NCBI GenBank assembly: GCA_019058315.1
Contig: JAHPZH010000006.1
Location: 1-64,000, forward strand
Origin: Candidatus Helarchaeota archaeon
GTDB lineage: Archaea > Asgardarchaeota > Lokiarchaeia > Helarchaeales > RDOG01
Direction of reading: 5' to 3'
DNA length: 64,000 nt
This document shows positions 14,722-41,005 of this stretch, piece after piece; position 1 is the stretch's first letter, and each line of letters opens with the position of its first letter. The notes under the pieces were generated by a model. It made no database searches. It saw only the letters and a program-made list of their open reading frames with translations, and had not been told where the DNA came from. The position numbers were made by a program, and so were the translations under genes.

Positions 14722-14822
14722 GCTGGGATAGCCAAGCGGTAAGGCGACAGGCTCGAGTTGGAAAAATGAGAAACCTGTTGACTAATTTAGTCGCGAGGGT
14801 TCAAATCCCTCTCCCAGCGCCA
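14722..14822 (+). tRNA. tRNA-Ser(CGA) with a 15-nt intron at canonical position 37/38 (14758-14772); CCA encoded
   Basis: Acceptor GCTGGGA/TCCCAGC, anticodon stem ACAGG/CCTGT, CGA at 14754-14756, long variable arm, T arm GAGGG-TTCAAAT-CCCTC; relaxed BHB with central helix CTCG/TGAG. Confidence 0.93.
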
Positions 14823-31585: not shown

Positions 31586-32304
31586 TTAACCTATTATTTT
31601 TTTAATTTCCAACAGATTCTCGATAATATAATCTGGTTTTTTATCCTTAGAAAATTCAATACTGCGATTATGTTTTCTTTTTATTAAAACTGTATTTATT
31701 TTTGCATTTTTCCCTGCTTGAATATCCAAATCTGTATCCCCAACAATATACATATTCTTATTTGAGAGATTATACTTTTTCATAAATTCAAAAATGGTAT
31801 CAGGTTGGGGTTTTGCTTTGTATTGTTGTTCAGTTCCAAGGAGATAAATTTCATGAAATATTTTATTATAAGGTAAATCAATTAAATCTAGTTCGAGATT
31901 TGCAATTGAAGCCGGAGTATTACTAATAATACCTAATTTTATGTCGTTTATAAATTTTAGTTCGTTAATTATGCCTCTAGCATCATTAAATAAATAAATT
32001 TCTCCATTTTTAATCATTTTTTTTCTTTCAATTAAATCCTCTTCGTCGAAACGTTTCCAAAAATCATCTATATCAAAGATTCCCCAGTTTCTAAGATATT
32101 CATCAAATTTCCTTCCAGAACGCCAAAAGGTGTGAATTTCTTGTTTGGTAAGCTCTTTTTTAGTTAGAATAAAAACAATCTTTGTAATTATTACGTCTAG
32201 AATTTCAAAGAAATTCTTGGGAACGTGGATGAATACACTTTAGAAAAATATTTTCATAAATTTGTGCCATCCAAATCAAAAAGAAGTCCGATGTTATTTT
32301 TCAT
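31586..32304 (-). CDS. HAD-superfamily (phosphoglycolate phosphatase-like) hydrolase, 229 aa, split by a 29-nt BHB intron; exons 32304-32262 and 32232-31586
   Basis: Exon 1 encodes MKNNIGLLFDLDGT (HAD motif I); exon 2 continues ...IHVPKNFFEILD and carries motifs II-IV (IISN, KPQP, VGDTDLD). The ATG overlaps the end of the upstream gene. The ORF track shows only the C-terminal 143 aa. Confidence 0.85.
32233..32261 (-). other. Putative BHB-type pre-mRNA intron (29 nt) in the HAD hydrolase gene
   Basis: Minus strand TGGATG-GCAC-AA^A-TTTATGAAAA-TAT-TTTTCTAAA-GTGT-AT^T-CATCCA: 6-bp outer helix, 4-bp central helix, two 3-nt bulges, inner hairpin; splicing gives GAT GGC ACA ATC ATC CAC. Confidence 0.85.
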
Positions 32305-32764
32305 GATTTACACTTTTAGATATTTCTAATAAAATTTCAACTGCTTTTCTTACAAATTTAACACATTTTTCTTGTAAAATATTTAATTTAATAAGTTTTT
32401 CTCGATCTTCTGGATCTCTTAAGTCACATTGAATTAATTCATAACACATTTCGCTTTTAAATTCGTTTTTAAATCTTTTAATGAATTCATTAGCTAAATC
32501 ATATGCATATTCTTTATCTTCATTACTATTTGACCTACCATATTTTAAATTTATTGCCAAGATCGCACCATTTACGGAACCACAAACAGAACCACTTCTA
32601 CCTATTCCTCCACCAAATGCCGTGGCAATTTTAGGTGTTATTGGTCCAATATTCCATGCTTCTTGCATTGTCATTAAAACGCTCTCAGCACAATTATATC
32701 CTTGTGTAAAATATGCTGTTGCTTTCTTCGGAAATTCTTGATTCTTTTCTCTCATTTTTATCAC
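32294..32764 (-). CDS. C_GCAxxG_C_C family putative redox protein
   Basis: GYNCAESV, FGGGIG..GSVCGSVNG, MCYELI, KCVKFV. Confidence 0.88.
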   Translation of the reverse strand: MIKMREKNQEFPKKATAYFTQGYNCAESVLMTMQEAWNIGPITPKIATAFGGGIGRSGSVCGSVNGAILAINLKYGRSNSNEDKEYAYDLANEFIKRFKNEFKSEMCYELIQCDLRDPEDREKLIKLNILQEKCVKFVRKAVEILLEISKSVNHEK

Positions 32765-32847
32765 TAATTATTGAACATAAAGTAATAATACAAAAGATAT
32801 TATTTCAATTAATTTCATTAGTTAATAAAAAATAAGGGCTGATTTGT

Positions 32848-33627
32848 ATCGAAATAATTGATACCCATATTCATTCTATATTTAGAAGTAATGACGATTT
32901 TATTAATTTAGTTAAAAAAGGGGTCACAAAAGTTATTAGTGTATCCTTTTATCCAATTGTTCCTTATTATTCTAATACTTTAATTGATTTATTTAATTGG
33001 ATTATTGAAGATGAACCCCGTAGAACTGAATCTACAGGAATTACTATTCATCCTGCTATTGGTATCCATCCCCGATCGATACCTCAAGATCTAAATAAGG
33101 AAAATCTACAGAAACTTAAATTAAAAATCGAGAATGCTATTGAAAATAATAGGATTGTGGCATTAGGTGAAATAGGTTTGGAGTCTGCTACACTAATAGA
33201 AAAGGATATTTTTGAATTTCATCTTAAAATCGCAAAAGAATTCGATTTTCCTGTTATTATACATACTCCTAGAAGGAATAAAAAAGATATTACAAAAAAA
33301 TCTATAGATCTAATATTAAGAAATAAAATAGAAACGGGTGTTTTAGACCACATAGACGAACAAAATCTTTCATTAGCTAAAAATACTAGCTTAAATTTGG
33401 GTTTAACAGTTCAAATGGGAAAGTTAACTCCAGAAAATTTCTATAAAATAGTAAACGAAAATGAACATGAAAAAGATCGTTTTGTACTGAATACTGATAT
33501 TGGAAGAGACGAAGCAGATTTGTATGCGGCATATAAAGCTGTTAATATATTAAAAAATAACGGAATTAATGAACATTTAATAGATTTAATCGCATCTAAA
33601 AATGCAAAAAAGTTATTTAAATTATAG
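32848..33627 (+). CDS. TatD-family metal-dependent hydrolase; true start is upstream of the track ORF and apparently non-canonical (ATC)
   Basis: Frame open from 32836: ...IEIIDTHIH...AIGIHPRSIP...ALGEIGL...IHTPR...LDH...LNTD; no in-frame ATG/GTG/TTG before the DxHxH motif. Confidence 0.8.
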   Translation: MEIIDTHIHSIFRSNDDFINLVKKGVTKVISVSFYPIVPYYSNTLIDLFNWIIEDEPRRTESTGITIHPAIGIHPRSIPQDLNKENLQKLKLKIENAIENNRIVALGEIGLESATLIEKDIFEFHLKIAKEFDFPVIIHTPRRNKKDITKKSIDLILRNKIETGVLDHIDEQNLSLAKNTSLNLGLTVQMGKLTPENFYKIVNENEHEKDRFVLNTDIGRDEADLYAAYKAVNILKNNGINEHLIDLIASKNAKKLFKL

Positions 33628-33665
33628 AATATAAAAAAACAACAATTCAATTATAGTGATTTTTA

Positions 33666-34433
33666 ATGGAATTAACTAAAACTGATAAGATTTTTACTAT
33701 AATTTTAATTATTTTAGGAGTCCTTTCTGTATATTTTTATTTTAATCCTCAAGCAGGTGCTTTTTTAAGTTTTTCGTCTTGGAAAATTGATAGATTTTCA
33801 TTAAATGGAACATTATTAATTGTTTTTATTGTTTGTCTAATTGGTAATCTATTACCGATTCCTACTCCCTATACTTTTATTATAATTCCTGCAGCACTTT
33901 CGTTTCCAGATTTTTTCTGGTTAATTGGATTAATGGCCTCATTTGGAGCTTTATTTGGTGAAATTGTTGGTTTTTGGGTTGGTCGAGGAACAAAAGAAGT
34001 TTTAGAACATACTGACACAGATCTTGAAAAAATTGAGAAATGGAAAAAGCTCGCAAATGAAAGACCTAAATTTGTTATGTTTTTAATTTACATTTTCGGT
34101 TTAACTCCTTTAAATGATGATAATGTTATGGTACCTTTAGGTTTAGCAGAATTTGATTTTAAAAAGACTGTTTTTTCATGCTTTCTTGGAAAACTATCAA
34201 TGATGATGTTATTTGCAGCCGGTACAGTAATTGGAATAGATTTAATTTATAGTGTAATGGGATATTCCAGATTTGAACTATTAAACTATTTACCAGGTGC
34301 TTCAGGACAAGGTAATTGGTTGGAAGGTATGATATTATTTATTATTGTTATCCTAATAGTTTGGGGAATGTTAAAAATAGATATTGGTAGATTTTTAAAA
34401 GAAAAATATGGTGTAGAACAGATAAATGAATAA
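33666..34433 (+). CDS. DedA/VTT-domain membrane protein
   Basis: GALFGEIVGFWVGRG, FGLTPLNDD..MVPLG, FLGK; multiple TM segments. Confidence 0.8.
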   Translation: MELTKTDKIFTIILIILGVLSVYFYFNPQAGAFLSFSSWKIDRFSLNGTLLIVFIVCLIGNLLPIPTPYTFIIIPAALSFPDFFWLIGLMASFGALFGEIVGFWVGRGTKEVLEHTDTDLEKIEKWKKLANERPKFVMFLIYIFGLTPLNDDNVMVPLGLAEFDFKKTVFSCFLGKLSMMMLFAAGTVIGIDLIYSVMGYSRFELLNYLPGASGQGNWLEGMILFIIVILIVWGMLKIDIGRFLKEKYGVEQINE

Positions 34434-34439
34434 ATAACG

Positions 34440-35147
34440 GTGTGTATTTTGAAAGGTTTTATAATTATAGCTCATCGAGGAGCTAGTGGATATGAATTTG
34501 AAAATTCTATTTCAGCTTTTAAAAAAGCCATCGAATTAAAAGCGGATATGATAGAAACCGATGCTCAAATTACTCAAGATGGAACAATTATTTTAAATCA
34601 CGATAATGGTATTAAAAAGACCACTAATGAAAAAGGATTCATATCGAGATTAACATTAAATGAAATTAAAAAAATTCCGTTAAAAAATGGGGAAATAATG
34701 CCTACTTATCAAGATCTTTTAGATCTTTGTAAAGGTAAAATAGAAATAAATTTAGAAATAAAAGCACGAAGAGTTGAAAAACTAGTAACAGATATTACTC
34801 TAAAGAATGATATGCTAAAAGAAGTCGTATTTTCATCTTTTTCACTGAAAACTCTTAAAAAAATTAGAGAATATAATGATGATGCCAGATTGGCATATTT
34901 AATCATTATACAAGGTTCCTTTATTGCTAGGCTTAATTATTGGATGAAAAAATTAAGTGAATTAAAAGTTGAAAGTATTAATCCCTTTCATATGTTTATA
35001 TCTTCAAAACTTGTGAAAGAAGCTCATAAAAAAGATATTTCTATATATCCTTGGACAATTAATGATTCAACTAAAATTCGAAATTTAATAGAAGAAAAAA
35101 ATATAGATGGAGTATTTACAGATTACCCTGATATATTAAATAAGTAA
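34440..35147 (+). CDS. Glycerophosphodiester phosphodiesterase
   Basis: IAHRGAS..EN, ETD, HD, NLEIK, WTIND, TDYPD. Confidence 0.93.
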   Translation: MCILKGFIIIAHRGASGYEFENSISAFKKAIELKADMIETDAQITQDGTIILNHDNGIKKTTNEKGFISRLTLNEIKKIPLKNGEIMPTYQDLLDLCKGKIEINLEIKARRVEKLVTDITLKNDMLKEVVFSSFSLKTLKKIREYNDDARLAYLIIIQGSFIARLNYWMKKLSELKVESINPFHMFISSKLVKEAHKKDISIYPWTINDSTKIRNLIEEKNIDGVFTDYPDILNK

Positions 35148-36113
35148 TTAAGCACGTTTTTTCTTTTCTATTATTAATTTTCCTATATGCAAAAATAACT
35201 CATCTATATTTTGTCCTGTTTTAGCTGATGTTTCAAAGAAAAGATAATTTAATTCTTTTGCCAATTTTTTACCTTGTTTGTTAGATACCCTTCTTTGGTT
35301 TTCTAAGTCGATTTTATTACTAACTAACACGCAAACAACATCTTCTTTAGCAAATCGTTTGATTTCACTTACCCATTCACTAACGTTCCTAAAAGACTCA
35401 GGGTTTGTAATATCATAAAGAATTAAAATTGCTTCTGCACCTGGATAATAAGTCTTTCTAAATTTTTGAAATAGTCCCTCTCCTGAAACATCCCATGCAA
35501 CCAAATCAAGTGTGTCATCTTCGACAGGATAAGAATATTTGAAAATATCTACGCCCAAAGTAGGTTTATAATCCGCGATAAATCTTTTTTTAGCAAATTG
35601 AACCAAAAGAGACGTTTTTCCAACTCCTGAATCACCTGAAACAACTATTTTATAGGTATATCTTTTTTTTGGTTGTTTGCTTATTGGAGTTTCAACAATT
35701 TTTTTTGGTTTTTGATATTCTAATGAAATATCAGTTTTCCCTTTAATTACTTTAGCTACTTTCTCCACTGCCATTTCTGCGTAAGGAATGACAGAATCAA
35801 TGCTAGAATTCTGTTTTAATATTGTAGTTAAAATTTTTTGATCCTCAACTTCTGTAAACATCAGAATTTGGGTTTTAATTTGTAAGGTAGCATTTTTGAA
35901 AAAGCCAGTATCAAAATCTTTATGAATTTTTTCACCTAATGAGTGAAGAAGCGCTGTTAAAGCTCCAATTGTAAAATCTTCCAAAGAATCACTAAAAGTA
36001 GATGCAATAATTAGTCCATCAGAGTCTACTATTGCACATCCTAAAATATCGTCCGAAATTTTTACATATTCTCCTAAAACTTTATCTAACATTTCGGTTC
36101 CTATGATTGACAC
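35148..36113 (-). CDS. Roadblock/LC7 - Rab-like small GTPase fusion
   Basis: N-terminal AIVDSDGLIIAS roadblock; GDSGVGKT, PTLGVD, WDVSGE, NKID, ETSAK. Confidence 0.9.
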   Translation of the reverse strand: MSIIGTEMLDKVLGEYVKISDDILGCAIVDSDGLIIASTFSDSLEDFTIGALTALLHSLGEKIHKDFDTGFFKNATLQIKTQILMFTEVEDQKILTTILKQNSSIDSVIPYAEMAVEKVAKVIKGKTDISLEYQKPKKIVETPISKQPKKRYTYKIVVSGDSGVGKTSLLVQFAKKRFIADYKPTLGVDIFKYSYPVEDDTLDLVAWDVSGEGLFQKFRKTYYPGAEAILILYDITNPESFRNVSEWVSEIKRFAKEDVVCVLVSNKIDLENQRRVSNKQGKKLAKELNYLFFETSAKTGQNIDELFLHIGKLIIEKKKRA

Positions 36114-36256
36114 TGTTATTATTCCTCATTTTTTGTTTTTTTCTCATTGTTTTTTTTGAAATAAAAACTCAATAACAAATAAAACTCCATTATATAAATA
36201 TTTATAATGTGAATCGAATTTATTTAAAGAAATATTATAATTTGAGATGATTTTTC

Positions 36257-37753
36257 ATGAAAAAGAATAGTTATGATGCAATAATTATTGGTTCTGGTAT
36301 TGGTGGTTCAGCTTGTGCTGCACTTCTTTCGCATGCTGGTTTCAAAACCTTAGTTTTGGAAAAAAATGAAAGAATTGGTGGTTTTACATCTTGTTATCAA
36401 AAACAAGGGTTCACTATTGATATATCTATTCACGTCTTTTCAAATGGGATAAATGGGCGTTTTGGTAAGATTTTACATAGAATTGGCCTTGCAACTAAAG
36501 AAAAGGGAAAAATTCAAAGTCAATATCTTAAATTCGTTCCAAATTTAGATAGAAGAACTGCAATTAGGATGCCTAATCAAAAAAATTATTTTTCTATGGG
36601 ATCTATGCTTACACCACAAAGTAAAATTACACCTAAACCCGATTCTGGTAATATTCAAAAAACTGTGTCTAATTTAGGAATGAATAAAGAAGATATGAAT
36701 AATTTGATGAACATTTTTATGACAATATTGGGTCTTACAAAACGAAAAATCAGAAAATTAGAAGAAAACCAATTAACTTTAAAAAATTATATTGAATCAT
36801 TTACAAAAAGTCCATTTATCCACAGTTTTCTTGCGTTTACAGTTGGAGGAATGTTTGCGATTTCTCCACGAAGAGCAAGCGCGGCAGAATTTGTTAGAGG
36901 TATTCAAGAATGGTTTGGCTCCAATGATATGTCATATCCCCTAGGAGGAAGTATCGCTGTTCCACAAGCATTCCTTGAAGGTGTTAAAAAATATGGTGGG
37001 GATATTAGGACCAAAGCACGAGTTTCAGAAATCGTTATCGAGAATAATAGAGCTAAAGGGGTAATTGTTAATGATGAATTTATAGAATCCAGTTTTATTA
37101 TTAGTAATGCCGGAATAAAAAAAACTGTTCTCTCTCTAACAGGGGAAAAATTTTATGAGAATAATTACATTAACAAAGTTAAATCGTTAGTTCCATCAAA
37201 TTCTTCAATAACTTTTAAATTTGCTTTAAATAAACAAATAATACCCAAAGAATTTGGAATGGTAAATATATTCCATAAAAATTTATTAAATCCTAGTAAA
37301 AAATCGGAAGAAGGGGACACAAGATCTACAGGTTTTATGACTATGATACCGTCAAATCTCGATCCAAATCTAGCTCCTCCAGGAAAACAATTAATAATTT
37401 TTGGAACTTTAGCTCCAACAAAAGGCGTTGAAGATTGGAAAAAGTGGACGGATATGCATTATGAAGAAATTTTACGAAATTACCCAGAAATTGAAGACCA
37501 AATTATTTTTGTGGATGTTTCGACTCCTTTAGATTTGGCTCAACTTTCAGGAAAAAAGTATGGACCAATAGAATCTACGGCCTTAATTCCTTCGCAATCA
37601 GGACCTAATAGAATATCCTCAGAATTGCCGATTGATGGTCTTTATGTCGTAGGGGATAGTGCTGGAACTAATACTCATGGTATTGGAACACAACTTGCAG
37701 CAGATAGCGCTATCAAGTGTGCCGATTTGATAATTTCGAAATATAAGCAGTAA
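36257..37753 (+). CDS. Phytoene desaturase-family FAD-dependent oxidoreductase
   Basis: IIGSGIGG dinucleotide fold, LEKNERIGG, YPLGG, DPNLAPPGKQ, GLYVVGD. Confidence 0.85.
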   Translation: MKKNSYDAIIIGSGIGGSACAALLSHAGFKTLVLEKNERIGGFTSCYQKQGFTIDISIHVFSNGINGRFGKILHRIGLATKEKGKIQSQYLKFVPNLDRRTAIRMPNQKNYFSMGSMLTPQSKITPKPDSGNIQKTVSNLGMNKEDMNNLMNIFMTILGLTKRKIRKLEENQLTLKNYIESFTKSPFIHSFLAFTVGGMFAISPRRASAAEFVRGIQEWFGSNDMSYPLGGSIAVPQAFLEGVKKYGGDIRTKARVSEIVIENNRAKGVIVNDEFIESSFIISNAGIKKTVLSLTGEKFYENNYINKVKSLVPSNSSITFKFALNKQIIPKEFGMVNIFHKNLLNPSKKSEEGDTRSTGFMTMIPSNLDPNLAPPGKQLIIFGTLAPTKGVEDWKKWTDMHYEEILRNYPEIEDQIIFVDVSTPLDLAQLSGKKYGPIESTALIPSQSGPNRISSELPIDGLYVVGDSAGTNTHGIGTQLAADSAIKCADLIISKYKQ

Positions 37754-37871
37754 ATCTTCTTTTTTCTAAATTTCAGATCACTATTTGTGGAGTTTAAATA
37801 GGGATCTGAGAGTAAGAGTGCAATATGAAAAAAGAGTGAGAGCATTCCGAAAGTATTAGGATTTGATAAAA

Positions 37872-38102
37872 ATGATGCTACCATGTTTTAAATGTAAAAA
37901 TTGTAATACAAATTGGATTATAGATATCTATTCAGATTCTAAAGAAGGTATTATTCAAGAATTCATAAGCCAAATGTGTTGCCCAATCTGTGGGAAAAGG
38001 AATTTGAGAGTATGTTTTATTCGAAAAGTAGATGATGAAACTCCTGATATTATACAAGAGTCATTTAATAATTGTGATGAAATTACTCAATCTTTAATGT
38101 AA
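37872..38102 (+). CDS. Small zinc-ribbon protein
   Basis: CKNC...CCPICG; ATG at 37872/37875 inside the track ORF. Confidence 0.6.
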   Translation: MMLPCFKCKNCNTNWIIDIYSDSKEGIIQEFISQMCCPICGKRNLRVCFIRKVDDETPDIIQESFNNCDEITQSLM

Positions 38103-38127
38103 TTTGTATTCGAAAATTCTTCTTAAA

Positions 38128-38434
38128 TTAAGTTCCTCGTCTTCTATATTTACACCCTTTTATGGGACAAAATCTATATTGAGGAGCAGAAGATCCGGCA
38201 ACTGGTCTTTTAATAATCCATCCAGAAACCCAACCATGATGTGGACAGTAATATTTTTCTCTATCTTTTAAATTTTCATCTTGTTCGTCTTGTGTAACTT
38301 TAAAATTACATACATCATGTGTTTGTTTATATTTTTCATTTACTGGACATACATTCCCTTTACGTTTAATTAAATTTACGCGGGCTATCCTCAGAATTTA
38401 TACATCCAGTACAATCTACTGGAATTTCTTTCAC
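38128..38434 (-). CDS. Small double zinc-finger protein (~96 aa) split by a 16-nt BHB intron; exons 38434-38376 and 38359-38128
   Basis: Spliced product (M)KEIPVDCTGCINSEDSPRKGNVCPVNEKYKQTHDVCNFKVTQDEQDENLKDREKYYCPHHGWVSGWIIKRPVAGSSAPQYRFCPIKGCKYRRRGT; start GTG 38434, or ATT 38425 after SD GAGGTGA; absent from ORF track. Confidence 0.7.
38360..38375 (-). other. Putative BHB-type pre-mRNA intron (16 nt) in the zinc-finger gene
   Basis: Minus strand CCC-GCGT-AA^A-TTTAATTAA-ACGT-AA^A-GGG; contains the in-frame TAA; splicing gives CGT AAA GGG AAT GTA TGT in frame. Confidence 0.68.
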
Positions 38435-38596
38435 CTCATGTTCATATTTAATTATTGAAAGATTGTCTTTATACATTATAATAAATTAGTTTAATTTTTA
38501 AAAAATAAACTTCATATAATCCTTAATAAGAAAAGAAATTTATTTTATCAACTACTACTTAAAAAGCAATTATTTAATTAGGAGGAACTACTACCT

Positions 38597-40117
38597 ATGA
38601 TAGCTGCTATTTGGAATCAACGTTTAATAACAGCAGTGGAACGTGCTAGATTAGCTCATAATGTATTTTGTGCATATAATGCTAATATCGATGCAAAAGA
38701 ATATATTAATGCTCAAAAAATTCATGTGGCATTTTTAAAAGACCCTTATCTTGTAGATAGAGTAAAAGCTGCAGTTAAAAATCCTCCCGATGAAATTCGC
38801 TCACCTGCAGATTTTTTAGCAGGTCTATATTTAGCTATGAAAGAAGGAAAATCTTTACAATGGGAAATCCGGGAAAAAAATAGAGAAATGTTAGAATGGT
38901 TTGATGAATACTTTGAAAATCCTGATGAAACTCGTATGGGTGGACAAACTGGCATTATTGCTAATTTATTGTCTATTTTAGGAGTAGAAGCTATTGTTTA
39001 CCTACCATTATTATCAAAAAAACAAGCTGAAATTTTTAGAAAAGAGCGTATATTTGTTCCTGTTAATAAAAATGATGTTGCAGAATTTCTTCCAATCCAA
39101 GAAGCTTATCGTGAAAAAGATGATACAAAAATAAATTGGGTATTTGAATTTAGAGAAGGTGGTAAGTTTCCTGTTCCTATTGAAGATAATGAAATAATTA
39201 TTGCCCCTCGTACAAATAGGTTTATTGTGGCAAGTAGACCTCCAGGTTTGATTCCTGTATGTGACTCAAAGACTGAAATAATTCTACCACAAATTGGAGA
39301 ACGTGTCGATAGAGTTATTCTTGGTGGTTATCAATACCTACGTCAAAGATATCCTGATGGTAAGACTTGTTCTGATTATTTGGATATAATTACAAAGCAT
39401 CTATTAATGTTAAAATCTAAAAACCTTTTGTTAAGGCTTCATATGGAATTTGCAGGTATTCCAAACGAACATATTAGGAAAGACATTTTGCTTAAAATCT
39501 CTCCTCAAATAAATAGCCTGGGTCTAAATGAGGTAGAAATTTTAATGGCCCTTGAGATTCTAGAATGTGAAGATGAAATTGAAATGATTAAAGCGAATGA
39601 AAATGCTTATACATTATATTTGGGTATGCTAAAAATGGCAGAATTATTAGGTTTAGAAAGAATTCATCTTCATAATCTAGGTTATCATGTTTTATACCTT
39701 AATAAATGTTATCCAACTTCTGCTTATGCTGCTAGAAATGCATTACTTTATGCTTCTAATATTGGGGCCACAAGAGCTCTAATGGGAGACTTTTACTCTC
39801 GAAGACCTGTAAGTTATGAAATTGAAATTGGAAAAACAGTGAGTATATCTTATACAGGATTAAAACAGTTAGAATTTTTTGCTGATAAAATGCTCAAAGA
39901 AGGAGTTAAATTTGATAAAGATAAATTTATGGATGAAGGAATACTAGAATTTGATAAATATTATGTCATTATTGCTCCTGCTCAAATTGCACCTTATCCT
40001 CAGAGTACCGTCGGGATTGGGGATTCTGTTAGTGCAGCTGCATTTGTTGCAGATGAGGCCAGGGATCCTCATGGTGAGAAAGAACACTGTGTAAGTCCTG
40101 AAACTGAACATATTTAA
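38597..40117 (+). CDS. ADP-dependent phosphofructokinase/glucokinase
   Basis: AYNANIDA, RMGGQTGIIANLL, NRFIVASRP, HMEFA, SLGLNEVE, STVGIGDSVS. Confidence 0.93.
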   Translation: MIAAIWNQRLITAVERARLAHNVFCAYNANIDAKEYINAQKIHVAFLKDPYLVDRVKAAVKNPPDEIRSPADFLAGLYLAMKEGKSLQWEIREKNREMLEWFDEYFENPDETRMGGQTGIIANLLSILGVEAIVYLPLLSKKQAEIFRKERIFVPVNKNDVAEFLPIQEAYREKDDTKINWVFEFREGGKFPVPIEDNEIIIAPRTNRFIVASRPPGLIPVCDSKTEIILPQIGERVDRVILGGYQYLRQRYPDGKTCSDYLDIITKHLLMLKSKNLLLRLHMEFAGIPNEHIRKDILLKISPQINSLGLNEVEILMALEILECEDEIEMIKANENAYTLYLGMLKMAELLGLERIHLHNLGYHVLYLNKCYPTSAYAARNALLYASNIGATRALMGDFYSRRPVSYEIEIGKTVSISYTGLKQLEFFADKMLKEGVKFDKDKFMDEGILEFDKYYVIIAPAQIAPYPQSTVGIGDSVSAAAFVADEARDPHGEKEHCVSPETEHI

Positions 40118-40143
40118 CGTTATTTCTTGTTTTTATTTTATTT

Positions 40144-40788
40144 TTCCAATAGAAATTAAGGGGTCATTTATTTTTTATGTCAAATCTATTTGAGCTAATT
40201 TATTTTTTCCTAAAATTCTTATCAATTAACTCAATTTGATTTGAGTTAAATAATTTCTTTGGCCTGGAATTGACTTTACATTGTTTGTAAATACTTTAAA
40301 TTAATCATTCTAAAACTATTTACAAACATTTAATTTTTTGCTTAATTTGAAAAATTTTCAAAAGACTCCTTCATTTCCATTGGAATTTCACAATATCTAT
40401 TTACTTCTAATATTTAATCAATAAAAATTTATAAATTTATAAAGAAATTTTTACAGAGACTTTAAATATCCTTCTTATCCATAACTAACGACTCATATTA
40501 TTATCATAAATAAAAAGATAATAATTATATAGCTTAGCATATTATTATCAGTTCCAATGGAAAATAAGGGGTGTTAAAATCAATTTTTTTTTCTGGAAAT
40601 CTAATAAAAATGTTAGGACTAAAAGGAAAAAATAGAGAATTAAAATATAAATCAAATTTAAAATAGGTAAAATTTTGAGTTAATATTATTTTTAATAAAT
40701 GAAAGAGGATATAAAATCAGGTCTTATAACTTATAAAGTTCTTTATTTTTCTTACATAGATTTCATAACCCCTTCATTTCAACTGGAA
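40144..40788. other. Probable chromosomal replication origin (oriC): four ORBs in two inverted pairs flanking AT-rich spacers
   Basis: TTCCAATAGAAATTAAGGGGT (+40144-40164), TTCCAATGGAAATGAAGGAGT (-40365-40385), TTCCAATGGAAAATAAGGGGT (+40552-40572), TTCCAGTTGAAATGAAGGGGT (-40768-40788); match the archaeal ORB + G-string consensus; largest intergenic region in the window. Confidence 0.88.
40282..40328. promoter_or_regulatory. Dyad TGTTTGTAAATA-N23-TATTTACAAACA, copy 1 (inside the origin)
   Basis: Perfect 12-bp inverted repeat; same arms and spacing as the copy at 41006-41052. Confidence 0.75.
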
Positions 40789-41005
40789 CTTAAATATTAG
40801 TACCATTTAGATGATATCTAGGGACTATTAAATGGTCAGATCAAATCAAAAGAAATACGAAAAATTATATTATAGAACATTACAAAAAATTAATATAAAA
40901 TTTTTAATTTTTTTAAACAAATTTACAATTTATCAATTCATAAAAGGTCAATTTCAGGGTTAATAACTATAGAAAAAATTATTATCTATTAGAAATCAAA
41001 ATAAA

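What the first reader, a model, noticed from the sequence alone, without database searches (positions are those of the whole stretch)
38128..38434. Second BHB mRNA intron: hidden zinc-finger gene rescued by a 16-nt splice
Seen: a region with no track ORF has, on the minus strand, SD GAGGTGA, then IPVDCTGCINSEDSPRKFN-stop, then a start-less frame KGNVCP...C...CPHH...CPIKGC...RRRGT-stop. The junction reads CCC-GCGT-AAA-TTTAATTAA-ACGT-AAA-GGG: 3-bp outer helix, 4-bp central helix, two 3-nt bulges and a minimal inner stem. Standard BHB cleavage removes 38375-38360 including the stop. It joins CxxC to its partner Cys residues, giving a ~96-aa two-Zn-site protein. Caveats: the outer helix is only 3 bp, and CGTAAA occurs at both junctions, so a slippage or duplication lesion is an alternative.
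Basis: partly seen in the sequence, partly recalled or inferred. Interest (0 to 1): 0.85.

Follow-up and report, generated by a model that had tools for sequence, protein, structure and literature searches.

The report
Probable 16-base tRNA-type intron in mRNA
A small cysteine-rich protein gene of an Asgard (Loki/Hel-type) archaeon is broken by a 16-base insert that has the shape cut by the tRNA-splicing enzyme. Removing it restores exactly the protein that relatives encode uninterrupted, so it is probably a very young mini-intron, but no RNA evidence exists and a fresh frameshift mutation is not excluded.

Summary
On the minus strand a GTG-started frame (38434-38376) runs into a stop. A start-less frame (38359-38128) continues the same protein. 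Sixteen bases (38375-38360) separate them.

Ten homologous loci in relatives, up to 90% identical, carry one uninterrupted 92-96 aa gene in the same neighbourhood. One of them reads CCCGCGTAAAGGG where the window has the insert. Excision gives a 96-aa product with all 40 family-invariant residues; dN/dS is about 0.1.

The insert and its flanks fold as a 3-bp helix, a 3-nt bulge, a 4-bp helix and a loop. Cuts at the canonical bulge positions remove exactly the 16 nt.

The same genome supports the mechanism:
- It has two EndA-domain genes and RtcB.
- Its tRNAs carry loop-only introns of 10, 11, 15 and 19 nt.
- Strict BHB inserts split conserved motifs of an EF-2 paralogue, RNase Z, a HAD hydrolase and an HTH protein.
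- The EF-2 intron recurs at the same codon in a sister genus, with an unrelated hairpin sequence.

Weaknesses:
- No RNA data are available.
- No relative shares this insert.
- The fold is no more stable than shuffled sequence.
- A 6-nt junction repeat (CGTAAA) makes a duplication-type lesion a live rival.

I put BHB intron at about 0.7 and recent lesion at about 0.25. This scan has already noted such mRNA introns in other Asgard genomes.

The parts
38376..38434 (-). Exon 1 of the small Cys-rich protein gene. It starts at GTG 38434-38432, encodes residues 1-19 (through CxxC ... SPR) and supplies the first two bases of Lys20.
   Evidence: The GTG start is homologous to the called starts of P0003 and P0004.
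38360..38375 (-). 16-nt intervening sequence, the candidate BHB/BHL micro-intron. It contains the in-frame stop TAA at 38368-38366.
   Evidence: It is absent from all 10 homologous loci. L008 reads CCCGCGTAAAGGG at this place. Its removal restores the frame and the conserved RKG.
38128..38359 (-). Exon 2. It holds the last base of Lys20, residues 21-96 and the stop TAA at 38130-38128. It has no start codon of its own.
   Evidence: It is 77-90% identical to P0003-P0006.
38356..38384 (-). The splicing motif: outer helix CCC (38384-82) / GGG (38358-56); central 4-bp helix GCGU (38381-78) / ACGU (38365-62); 5' bulge AAA (38377-75); 3' bulge AAA (38361-59); 9-nt inner segment (38374-66).
   Evidence: Sequence. 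The MFE in three contexts forms both helices and the 3' bulge. The geometry is the same as in the tRNA-Met, tRNA-Trp and tRNA-Ser introns of this genome.
38359..38380 (-). Junction direct repeats CGTAAA (38380-75 and 38364-59) flanking the perfect palindrome TTTAATTAAA (38374-65).
   Evidence: The sequence is unique in the genome. The HTH-CBS intron of the same genome has a similar 6-nt junction repeat, CTAGAA.
32233..32261 (-). A companion 29-nt BHB insert in a HAD-hydrolase gene of the same window. It splits motif I in phase 1 (DLDGT | I): GGATG GCAC AA|A ... GTGT AT|T CATCC.
   Evidence: Exon 2 matches HAD_2.
14722..14819 (+). tRNA-Ser(CGA) gene in the window with a 15-nt loop-only intron at position 37/38. 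It shows that the host enzyme must process introns of this size class.
   Evidence: Rfam tRNA match at 52.9 bits. Excision of the BHB gives a normal tRNA-Ser.

Best explanation
The 16 nt at 38375-38360 (minus strand) are probably a bulge-helix-bulge type micro-intron in the pre-mRNA of a 96-aa cysteine-rich, probably zinc-binding, protein.

Proposed mechanism:
1. The transcript folds so that exon bases CCC GCGU pair with ACGU (the intron's 3' end) and GGG (exon 2).
2. This leaves AAA as a 3-nt bulge on the 3' strand. The other AAA sits at the mouth of a 12-nt loop. The result is a relaxed bulge-helix-loop form.
3. The heteromeric splicing endonuclease cuts after the second base of each AAA.
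4. RtcB joins ...CGUAA to AGGG..., recreating the Lys20 codon and the conserved R-K-G.

What is shown: the insert, the fold geometry, exact restoration of a conserved collinear protein, the presence of the enzymes, and same-genome precedents. What is inferred: that cleavage and ligation really happen on this mRNA. All relatives found lack the insert, so the intron would be a recent, lineage-specific gain.
For: 1. Ten homologous loci are uninterrupted 92-96 aa genes. Where flanks were available, in the closest relatives, they lie in the same neighbourhood: a divergent ADP-PFK/GK gene and a convergent gene of about 75 aa.
2. In a DNA alignment the window equals the intron-less allele plus exactly 16 nt.
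3. The spliced CDS is 291 nt, or 96 aa, like the four closest homologues. All 40 invariant residues are kept. dN/dS is about 0.10 at dS 0.8-1.0.
4. The motif has the same topology and cut positions as the canonical 19-nt tRNA-Met intron of this genome. The MFE adopts it in three contexts.
5. The same genome has loop-only tRNA introns of 10 nt (in its only detected tRNA-Trp), 11 nt and 15 nt, all with a 3' bulge AA|A as here.
6. Two EndA-domain genes and RtcB are present. Asgard EndA is reported to be the (alpha-beta)2 type with the loop that confers broad specificity (PMC5829648).
7. Other protein genes of this genome carry strict BHB inserts inside conserved motifs. These are the EF-2 paralogue (GTP_EFTU profile 2-79 | 82-151), RNase Z (LFDCGE|GTQ), HAD (DLDGT|I) and HTH-CBS.
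8. The EF-2 intron sits at the same codon in sister genus G001, with a different length (33 vs 31 nt) and an unrelated hairpin sequence. Two further relatives are contiguous there.
9. A strict BHB in the restoring register arises by chance in 0.3% (random insert) to 2.4% (6-nt duplication type) of simulated insertions.
10. Published cbf5 mRNA introns include 16-bp ones (PMC2738675, Table 1).
11. A 6-nt junction repeat also occurs in the well-formed HTH-CBS intron, so the repeat does not argue against an intron.
Against: - The insert is found in one strain only. No relative has an insert at this site, so there is no covariation and no sign of selection on the structure.
- The fold is weak (-5.1 kcal/mol) and no better than shuffled sequence, with z between 0 and -0.8.
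- The outer helix has only 3 bp and no inner helix forms.
- Given a CGTAAA duplication at this particular site, half of all 10-nt fillers would give the same BHB. The motif is therefore much weaker evidence than it looks if the event was a duplication-type insertion.
- The other mRNA inserts I examined in this genome are 29-33 nt with strong inner hairpins. None is of the micro class.
- The gene belongs to a narrow, apparently dispensable family, the kind that decays easily.
- One conserved acidic residue next to the junction (E/D23) is Val here.
Confidence: 0.7

Rival explanations
1. A recent frameshifting insertion has inactivated a small dispensable gene, as a young pseudogene or a strain-level variant. 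The insertion is a 10-nt palindrome plus a 6-nt duplication of the target. The BHB-like fold is a by-product of the duplicated CGTAAA landing in an exon that already read CCC...GGG.
For: - CGTAAA is duplicated exactly at both junctions and the filler is a perfect palindrome.
- With that duplication at this site, 50% of fillers give a strict BHB.
- No relative shares the insert.
- The fold is not more stable than shuffles.
- The family is narrow and of unknown function.
- Because dS to the nearest relative is about 0.8-1, an intact rest of the gene cannot date the insertion.
Against: - Averaged over sites, such an insertion gives a BHB in the restoring register only 2.4% of the time, and a random 16-mer 0.3%.
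- The genome demonstrably uses this motif class in tRNAs down to 10 nt and carries BHB inserts in conserved protein genes, one of them conserved across genera.
- A bona fide-looking 33-nt BHB intron in the same genome has the same kind of 6-nt junction repeat.
- There is no second lesion, and all 40 invariant residues and the GTG start are intact.
- The insert is not a tandem duplication and has no other copy in the genome.
Confidence: 0.25
2. Recoding at the ribosome rather than RNA splicing. One possibility is a translational hop of peptidyl-tRNA-Lys from the take-off codon AAA (38377-75) to the identical landing codon AAA (38361-59). Another is a +1 frameshift at the TAA. Either would yield the same or a 5-residue-longer protein.
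For: Matched CGT-AAA codons stand 16 nt apart, with a stop codon between them. A hop would give exactly the homologous 96-aa product.
Against: - To my knowledge no such bypass is known in archaea; I did not search the literature for this.
- The stop is three codons after the take-off codon rather than adjacent, and no stimulatory structure beyond the weak hairpin is seen.
- AAU-UAA-A is not a slippery +1 site.
- The same genome offers a far simpler mechanism with demonstrated substrates.
Confidence: 0.03
3. Assembly or sequencing artefact: the 16 nt are not in the organism's DNA.
For: None specific. The genome is a metagenome-type assembly of 12 contigs.
Against: An independent assembly (Logan contig of run SRR14802573, 44.7 kb) is 100% identical over 4,111 bp, including the insert. 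A 16-nt non-repetitive insertion is also not a typical read error.
Confidence: 0.02

Closest known systems
cbf5 pre-mRNA BHB introns of Crenarchaeota (Desulfurococcales, Sulfolobales; Watanabe 2002, Yoshinari 2006, Yokobori 2009 = PMC2738675)
   Same: [quoted passage not shown] Both are removed by the hetero-oligomeric tRNA-splicing endonuclease. Sizes overlap exactly: the Desulfurococcus mobilis and D. mucosus cbf5 introns are 16 bp. Presence and absence are patchy among relatives.
   Different: The host is an Asgard (Loki/Hel-type) archaeon and the gene is an uncharacterised 96-aa Cys-rich protein, not cbf5. Splicing of cbf5 was shown experimentally; here it is only inferred. This insert is confined to one strain, whereas the cbf5 intron is shared by many species.
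Canonical and micro tRNA introns of the same genome (tRNA-Trp 10 nt, Ser 11 and 15 nt, Met 19 nt)
   Same: The topology is identical: outer helix, 4-bp helix, 3-nt bulges, cut after the second bulge base. The inner segment is loop-only and the 3' bulge is AA|A.
   Different: The tRNA outer helix is the 5-9 bp anticodon stem inside a folded tRNA body. Here it is 3 G-C pairs in an mRNA.
Other BHB inserts in protein genes of this genome (EF-2 paralogue, RNase Z, HAD, Rrp41, HDAC-type, HTH-CBS)
   Same: They share the motif and the cut register. Each interrupts a conserved motif and carries an in-frame stop in the insert. G.U is the first central pair in four of six. HTH-CBS also has a 6-nt junction repeat.
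   Different: Those inserts are 29-33 nt with 4-11 bp AT-rich inner hairpins. This one is half that size with no stable inner helix. Only the EF-2 intron has cross-genus support so far.
HAC1/XBP1 unconventional mRNA splicing (Ire1 plus tRNA ligase/RtcB) in eukaryotes
   Same: In both, spliceosome-independent endonucleolytic removal of a short frame-shifting segment from an mRNA, followed by RtcB-type ligation, changes the reading frame (general knowledge; RtcB's role is cited in PMC5829648, ref. 5).
   Different: The nuclease is different (Ire1, not EndA). The recognition motif is different (twin stem-loops). The eukaryotic system is regulated by stress; no regulation is known here.

Membership tests
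Archaeal BHB (EndA/RtcB-spliced) pre-mRNA intron | Two 3-nt bulges on opposite strands separated by a 4-bp helix, flanked by an outer helix (strict hBHBh' or a relaxed BHL form) | tested here: met
   The motif reads CCC GCGU AA|A (9 nt) ACGU AA|A GGG. The MFE forms the outer helix, the 3' bulge and the 4-bp helix. The 5' bulge lies in a 12-nt loop, which is the relaxed BHL form.
Archaeal BHB (EndA/RtcB-spliced) pre-mRNA intron | Cleavage at the canonical bulge positions yields an open frame collinear with intron-less homologues | tested here: met
   Removing 38375-38360 gives 96 aa with no gap against P0003-P0006 and keeps all 40 invariant residues.
Archaeal BHB (EndA/RtcB-spliced) pre-mRNA intron | The host encodes a splicing endonuclease of broad specificity and an RNA ligase | tested here: met
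   Two tRNA_int_endo-domain ORFs (184 and 204 aa) and RtcB score over the Pfam cut-offs. The broad-specificity loop was not inspected here; it is reported for Asgard EndA in PMC5829648.
Archaeal BHB (EndA/RtcB-spliced) pre-mRNA intron | The host enzyme demonstrably has to process introns of this size and architecture | tested here: met
   Loop-only introns of 10, 11, 15 and 19 nt occur at 37/38 of tRNA-Trp, Ser, Ser and Met. The 10-nt one is in the only tRNA-Trp gene detected.
Archaeal BHB (EndA/RtcB-spliced) pre-mRNA intron | A mature RNA lacking the intron, or the excised or circular intron, is observed | not testable with these tools
   No RNA run was listed for this DNA. No 96-aa protein identical to the spliced product is on record in the protein collection.
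Archaeal BHB (EndA/RtcB-spliced) pre-mRNA intron | The intron is retained in relatives, with structure-preserving changes | tested here: not met
   All homologous loci found are intron-less. This fits either a very recent gain or a lesion.
Pseudogene (decaying gene) | Further lesions, loss of conserved residues or relaxed constraint | tested here: not met
   The 16-nt insert is the only lesion. The GTG start, all Cys/His and the stop are intact, and dN/dS is about 0.10. This cannot exclude a very recent inactivation.
Zinc-ribbon / zinc-finger protein | Match to a zinc-binding family, or a confident model with Cys/His clusters | tested here: inconclusive
   There is no Pfam or NCBIfam match. 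Eight Cys and two His are invariant. The C-terminal module recurs seven times in a 1094-aa protein that has zinc-ribbon Pfam hits. The AF2 model has pLDDT 61 and the fold search found nothing.

The most novel reading that the evidence does not exclude
This is a newborn BHB intron caught with its birth scar. An intron-less relative carries the same 13 bases around the site, so the gain event can be read to the base. A 10-nt perfect palindrome was inserted together with a 6-nt duplication of the target (CGTAAA), at a place where the exon already supplied the outer helix and a CG-palindromic half of the central helix. A second intron of the same genome (HTH-CBS) has the same kind of scar: CTAGAA...CTAGAA around a palindromic CTAG helix. 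Together these would point to a staggered-cut or target-duplication route by which Asgard BHB introns are created in mRNAs, and perhaps in tRNAs. A recent tRNA-intron census left the question of intron arrival explicitly open.
Probability: 0.25. Interest if true: 0.85.

Novelty: new member of a known kind. Interest (0 to 1): 0.55.

Why it matters
In the papers I could search, endonuclease-type (BHB) splicing inside an archaeal coding sequence is documented only for cbf5 of Crenarchaeota. Asgard archaea are the closest prokaryotic relatives of eukaryotes. A genome in which several unrelated mRNAs need tRNA-type cut-and-rejoin splicing bears on how split genes, and RtcB-dependent mRNA splicing of the HAC1/XBP1 kind, arose.

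This instance adds three things:
- It sits at the lower size limit for an mRNA, 16 nt with a loop only.
- The exon sequence flanking it is identical to that of an intron-less relative, so the gain event is delimited to the base.
- It is a practical warning for annotation. The gene is invisible to gene callers, which see only a 36-aa stub. Such micro-introns will be mis-scored as pseudogenes.

If it is instead a lesion, it is an ordinary young pseudogene. It would then be a useful negative control showing how easily a duplication can mimic a BHB.

Tried and rejected
1. RNA evidence. The look-up of sequencing runs (kind rna) listed no RNA holder for window 32000-41000. With no run id, read laying could not be used. 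This is not evidence either way.

2. Genome-wide ORF-restoration scan. I enumerated 1.35 million strict BHB motifs (L 10-80). I then asked how many restore long open frames at the true cut register compared with shifted registers. Chance hits at same-strand gene junctions and multi-frame-open low-complexity regions swamp the signal, with hundreds to thousands per setting. No clean excess at the true register emerged. Small excesses for same-length excisions were confounded by length-modulo-3 effects. I therefore give no count of mRNA introns for this genome. Only individually checked cases are used.

3. A shared 'G.U as first central pair / A as first base of the 3' bulge' signature looked universal in four or five mRNA introns. 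It broke when HDAC (U.G; CA|T) and HTH-CBS (C-G) were added, so I do not use it as evidence.

4. Search for relatives carrying the insert. The genome search over 41 genomes, the 5.8-billion-protein index, metagenome contigs and genome contigs all returned only intron-less genes.

5. Search for other copies of the insert in the genome, to test for a mobile element or intron transposition. None was found at up to 3 mismatches over 24 nt.

6. Protein function. Pfam, NCBIfam, an AlphaFold2 model (pLDDT 61), Foldseek against the PDB, the ESM Atlas and an exhaustive profile search gave no family beyond weak zinc-ribbon leads.

7. Thermodynamic test. The local fold is not more stable than shuffled sequence. 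This is uninformative for so short an AT-rich element.

8. Aragorn intron calls on the whole genome were too unreliable for multi-intron tRNAs. I replaced them with BHB excision followed by re-scoring.

Full report
**1. What is in the sequence**

On the minus strand, a frame that includes GTG 38434-38432 reads VKEIPVDCTGCINSEDSPRKFN and stops at TAA 38368-38366. One base further on, a second frame reads RKGNVCPVNEKY...CPHHGW...RPVAGSSAPQYRFCPIKGCKYRRRGT, with its stop at 38130-38128. This second frame has no ATG, GTG or TTG start of its own.

The junction is CCC GCGT AAA TTTAATTAA ACGT AAA GGG (38384-38356). CGTAAA occurs twice (38380-75 and 38364-59). The 10 nt between the two copies, TTTAATTAAA, are a perfect palindrome.

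An independent Logan assembly of run SRR14802573 is 100% identical over 4.1 kb, insert included. The insert is therefore in the DNA.

**2. It is one gene, interrupted**

- A six-frame search of 41 related genomes found the second frame in three of them. Each time it was part of one uninterrupted ORF of 92-96 aa, starting M-P-V/I-D-C.
- The large protein index gave seven clusters. All are 92-96 aa and contiguous. Four are 77-90% identical to exon 2, and these begin three codons before the Pro, exactly where the window has GTG.
- Their contigs show the same neighbourhood as the window: a divergent ADP-dependent PFK/GK gene, a convergent small gene of about 75 aa, and an FAD oxidoreductase.
- In a DNA alignment, L008 reads ...AACCCGCGTAAAGGGAAT... 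where the window reads ...AGCCCGCGTAAA[16 nt]... The window is the intron-less allele plus exactly 16 nt.
- Joining 38434-38376 to 38359-38128 gives 291 nt, or 96 aa. This is collinear with the closest homologues and keeps all 40 family-invariant residues (8 Cys and 2 His among them).
- dN/dS against four relatives is 0.10-0.16 at dS 0.8-1.0.

Metagenome and genome-contig scans added three more loci, all intron-less.

**3. Does it look like a substrate of the splicing endonuclease?**

I fixed the motif topology on the 19-nt canonical intron of this genome's tRNA-Met: TTGGG CTCA TA|A (12 nt) TGAG AT|A CCCAA. The candidate has the same layout, CCC GCGU AA|A (9 nt) ACGU AA|A GGG. Cutting after the second bulge base removes the 16 nt.

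RNAfold gives this pairing as the minimum-energy structure in 34-, 41- and 61-nt contexts. However, the two A-U pairs of the 'inner stem' do not form, so the shape is a bulge-helix-loop. The energy of -5.1 kcal/mol is no better than shuffles.

**4. Can the host do it?**

- The genome has two ORFs with the tRNA_int_endo domain (184 and 204 aa), as expected for an alpha/beta heteromer, and one RtcB.
- Asgard EndA is reported as the (alpha-beta)2 type with the loop that gives broad specificity, including bulge-helix-loop substrates (PMC5829648).
- The host's own tRNAs need even smaller loop-only introns removed at position 37/38. These are 10 nt in the only tRNA-Trp gene detected (CCAGA CTCC AA|A TGT GGAG AA|A TCTGG; unspliced it gives an aberrant 86-nt fold, spliced a normal 76-nt cloverleaf), 11 nt in tRNA-Ser(TGA), 15 nt in tRNA-Ser(CGA), which lies in this window at 14722-14819, and 19 nt in tRNA-Met.
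- Published archaeal tRNA introns range from 11 to 175 nt. The cbf5 mRNA introns of Desulfurococcus mobilis and D. mucosus are 16 bp (PMC2738675).

**5. Is mRNA splicing plausible in this organism?**

Following leads from first-stage notes on the same genome, I checked other inserts myself.

- A 31-nt insert splits DTPGH|VD of an EF-2 paralogue. Exon 1 matches GTP_EFTU profile positions 2-79 and exon 2 matches positions 82-151. A second, 33%-identical EF-2 gene exists, so this one need not be essential.
- A 29-nt insert splits LFDCGE|GTQ of RNase Z.
- A 29-nt insert splits DLDGT|I of a HAD hydrolase in this window.
- A 33-nt insert splits the HTH motif ...SQSLIAR|IETG....

All of these are strict hBHBh' motifs with the same cut register.

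The strongest single piece of evidence is the EF-2 intron. In the sister genus G001 the orthologue is interrupted at the same codon by a 33-nt insert. Its hairpin sequence is unrelated (AGAATTC/GAATTCT instead of TATAAAAATA/TATTTTTATA). Its central helix differs on one side (GACC instead of GACT). Two further relatives are contiguous at this site. A structure kept while the sequence is replaced is what a functional intron predicts.

**6. How much does the motif prove for this insert?**

In simulation, a random 16-mer gives a strict BHB in the restoring register in 0.3% of insertions. An insertion of 10 random bases plus a 6-nt target duplication at random genomic sites does so in 2.4%. At this very site the figure is 50%. 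The exon already reads CCC...GGG, CG is self-complementary, and only the base before the second CGT is free.

If the event was a duplication-type mutation, the BHB comes almost for free once the site is given. Three points weigh against this:
- The site itself is unusual; that is what the 2.4% measures.
- The insert is not a tandem duplication and has no other copy in the genome.
- The well-formed 33-nt HTH-CBS intron of the same genome has the same kind of 6-nt junction repeat, CTAGAA...CTAGAA around a palindromic CTAG helix. Junction repeats are therefore a property of at least some BHB inserts here and not a mark of lesions.

**7. What remains open**

- No RNA run was listed.
- No relative has the insert, so there is neither covariation nor a date.
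- The nearest relatives are near synonymous saturation, so an intact gene cannot exclude a very recent inactivation.
- All other mRNA inserts I checked are 29-33 nt with inner hairpins. This would be the first of the micro class in an mRNA of this genome.
- My attempts to count frame-restoring BHB motifs genome-wide from ORFs alone were swamped by noise and are uninformative.

**8. The protein**

It is 96 aa, basic at the C-terminus, and has invariant C8, C11, C24, H34, C37, C58, H61, C84 and C89. The intron falls between the CxxC and its presumed partner ligands.

There is no Pfam or NCBIfam match. An exhaustive profile search over 1.8 billion representatives finds only its own cluster, a fragment, and a 1094-aa protein that repeats the C-terminal module seven times and has zinc-ribbon Pfam hits. 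The AlphaFold2 model is poor (pLDDT 61) and the fold searches found nothing.

'Small zinc-ribbon-like protein' is a reasonable label. 'Two Zn sites' is not shown.

**9. Literature**

In the searchable library, BHB introns inside coding sequences are reported for cbf5 of Crenarchaeota only. A 2026 preprint documents heavy, repeatedly gained tRNA introns in Asgard archaea and leaves their route of arrival open. It does not treat mRNAs.

Earlier follow-ups in this scan report similar mRNA introns in other Asgard genomes, two of them with RNA-derived contigs lacking the intron. I did not test those claims and use them only as background.

**10. Verdict**

- Probably (about 0.7) a lineage-specific 16-nt BHB/BHL micro-intron, spliced by EndA and RtcB.
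- About 0.25 a recent frameshifting insertion that mimics the motif.
- A few per cent for ribosomal bypass or artefact.

It is a new member of a known kind. Its special value is that the intron-less allele with the same flanking exon sequence is available, so the gain event (a 10-nt palindrome plus a 6-nt duplication) is visible to the base.

Noticed in passing
G000:C6:81229-81259 (minus) and L022:1780-1812 (G001): The EF-2 paralogue carries a BHB intron at the same codon (DTPGH|VD) in two genera. The lengths are 31 and 33 nt and the hairpin sequences are unrelated. The central helix is GGTC/GACU in one and GGTC/GACC in the other. Two other relatives (G005, G002) are contiguous at this site. 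This is the best comparative evidence for mRNA BHB splicing that I saw in this lineage.
   Followed up: partly
G000:C3:628662-628744 (minus); also C5:275498-275592 and window 14722-14819: The tRNAs have loop-only micro-introns at 37/38: 10 nt in tRNA-Trp, 11 nt in Ser(TGA) and 15 nt in Ser(CGA). The 10-nt one is below the 11-nt minimum quoted in PMC2738675. ARAGORN without intron mode misfolds the Trp gene or misses such genes; the window's own tRNA-Ser was not reported.
   Followed up: partly
G000:C5 around 499168 (plus strand), HTH-CBS gene: This 33-nt BHB intron has a palindromic central helix CTAG/CTAG. It therefore has a 6-nt direct repeat, CTAGAA, at both junctions. This is the same kind of scar as CGTAAA in the finding and is possibly a trace of how these introns are inserted.
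   Followed up: no
window 32233-32261 (minus): A 29-nt BHB insert in phase 1 splits motif I (DLDGT|I) of a HAD-family hydrolase only 13 codons after its ATG.
   Followed up: partly
G000:C10:146801 region (minus), HDAC-type gene: This 32-nt BHB insert has an 11-bp inner hairpin, a U.G-rich central helix (UAUA/UGUG) and a 3' bulge CA|U. It shows that bulge and helix sequence preferences are not strict in this genome.
   Followed up: no
window 37863-38102 (plus): A convergent 79-aa ORF with CxxC...CxxC lies directly downstream of the interrupted gene. It has weak matches to HypA-like and PG0870 N-terminal zinc-binding models. It is conserved as a gene of about 75 aa in all syntenic relatives, so the two small Cys-rich genes may form a pair.
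   Followed up: no
P0011 (1094 aa, from the representative library): This large protein has transglutaminase-core, fn3 and GH85_C hits. It repeats the C-terminal CPxHGW...FCPxxGC module of the small protein seven times.
   Followed up: no
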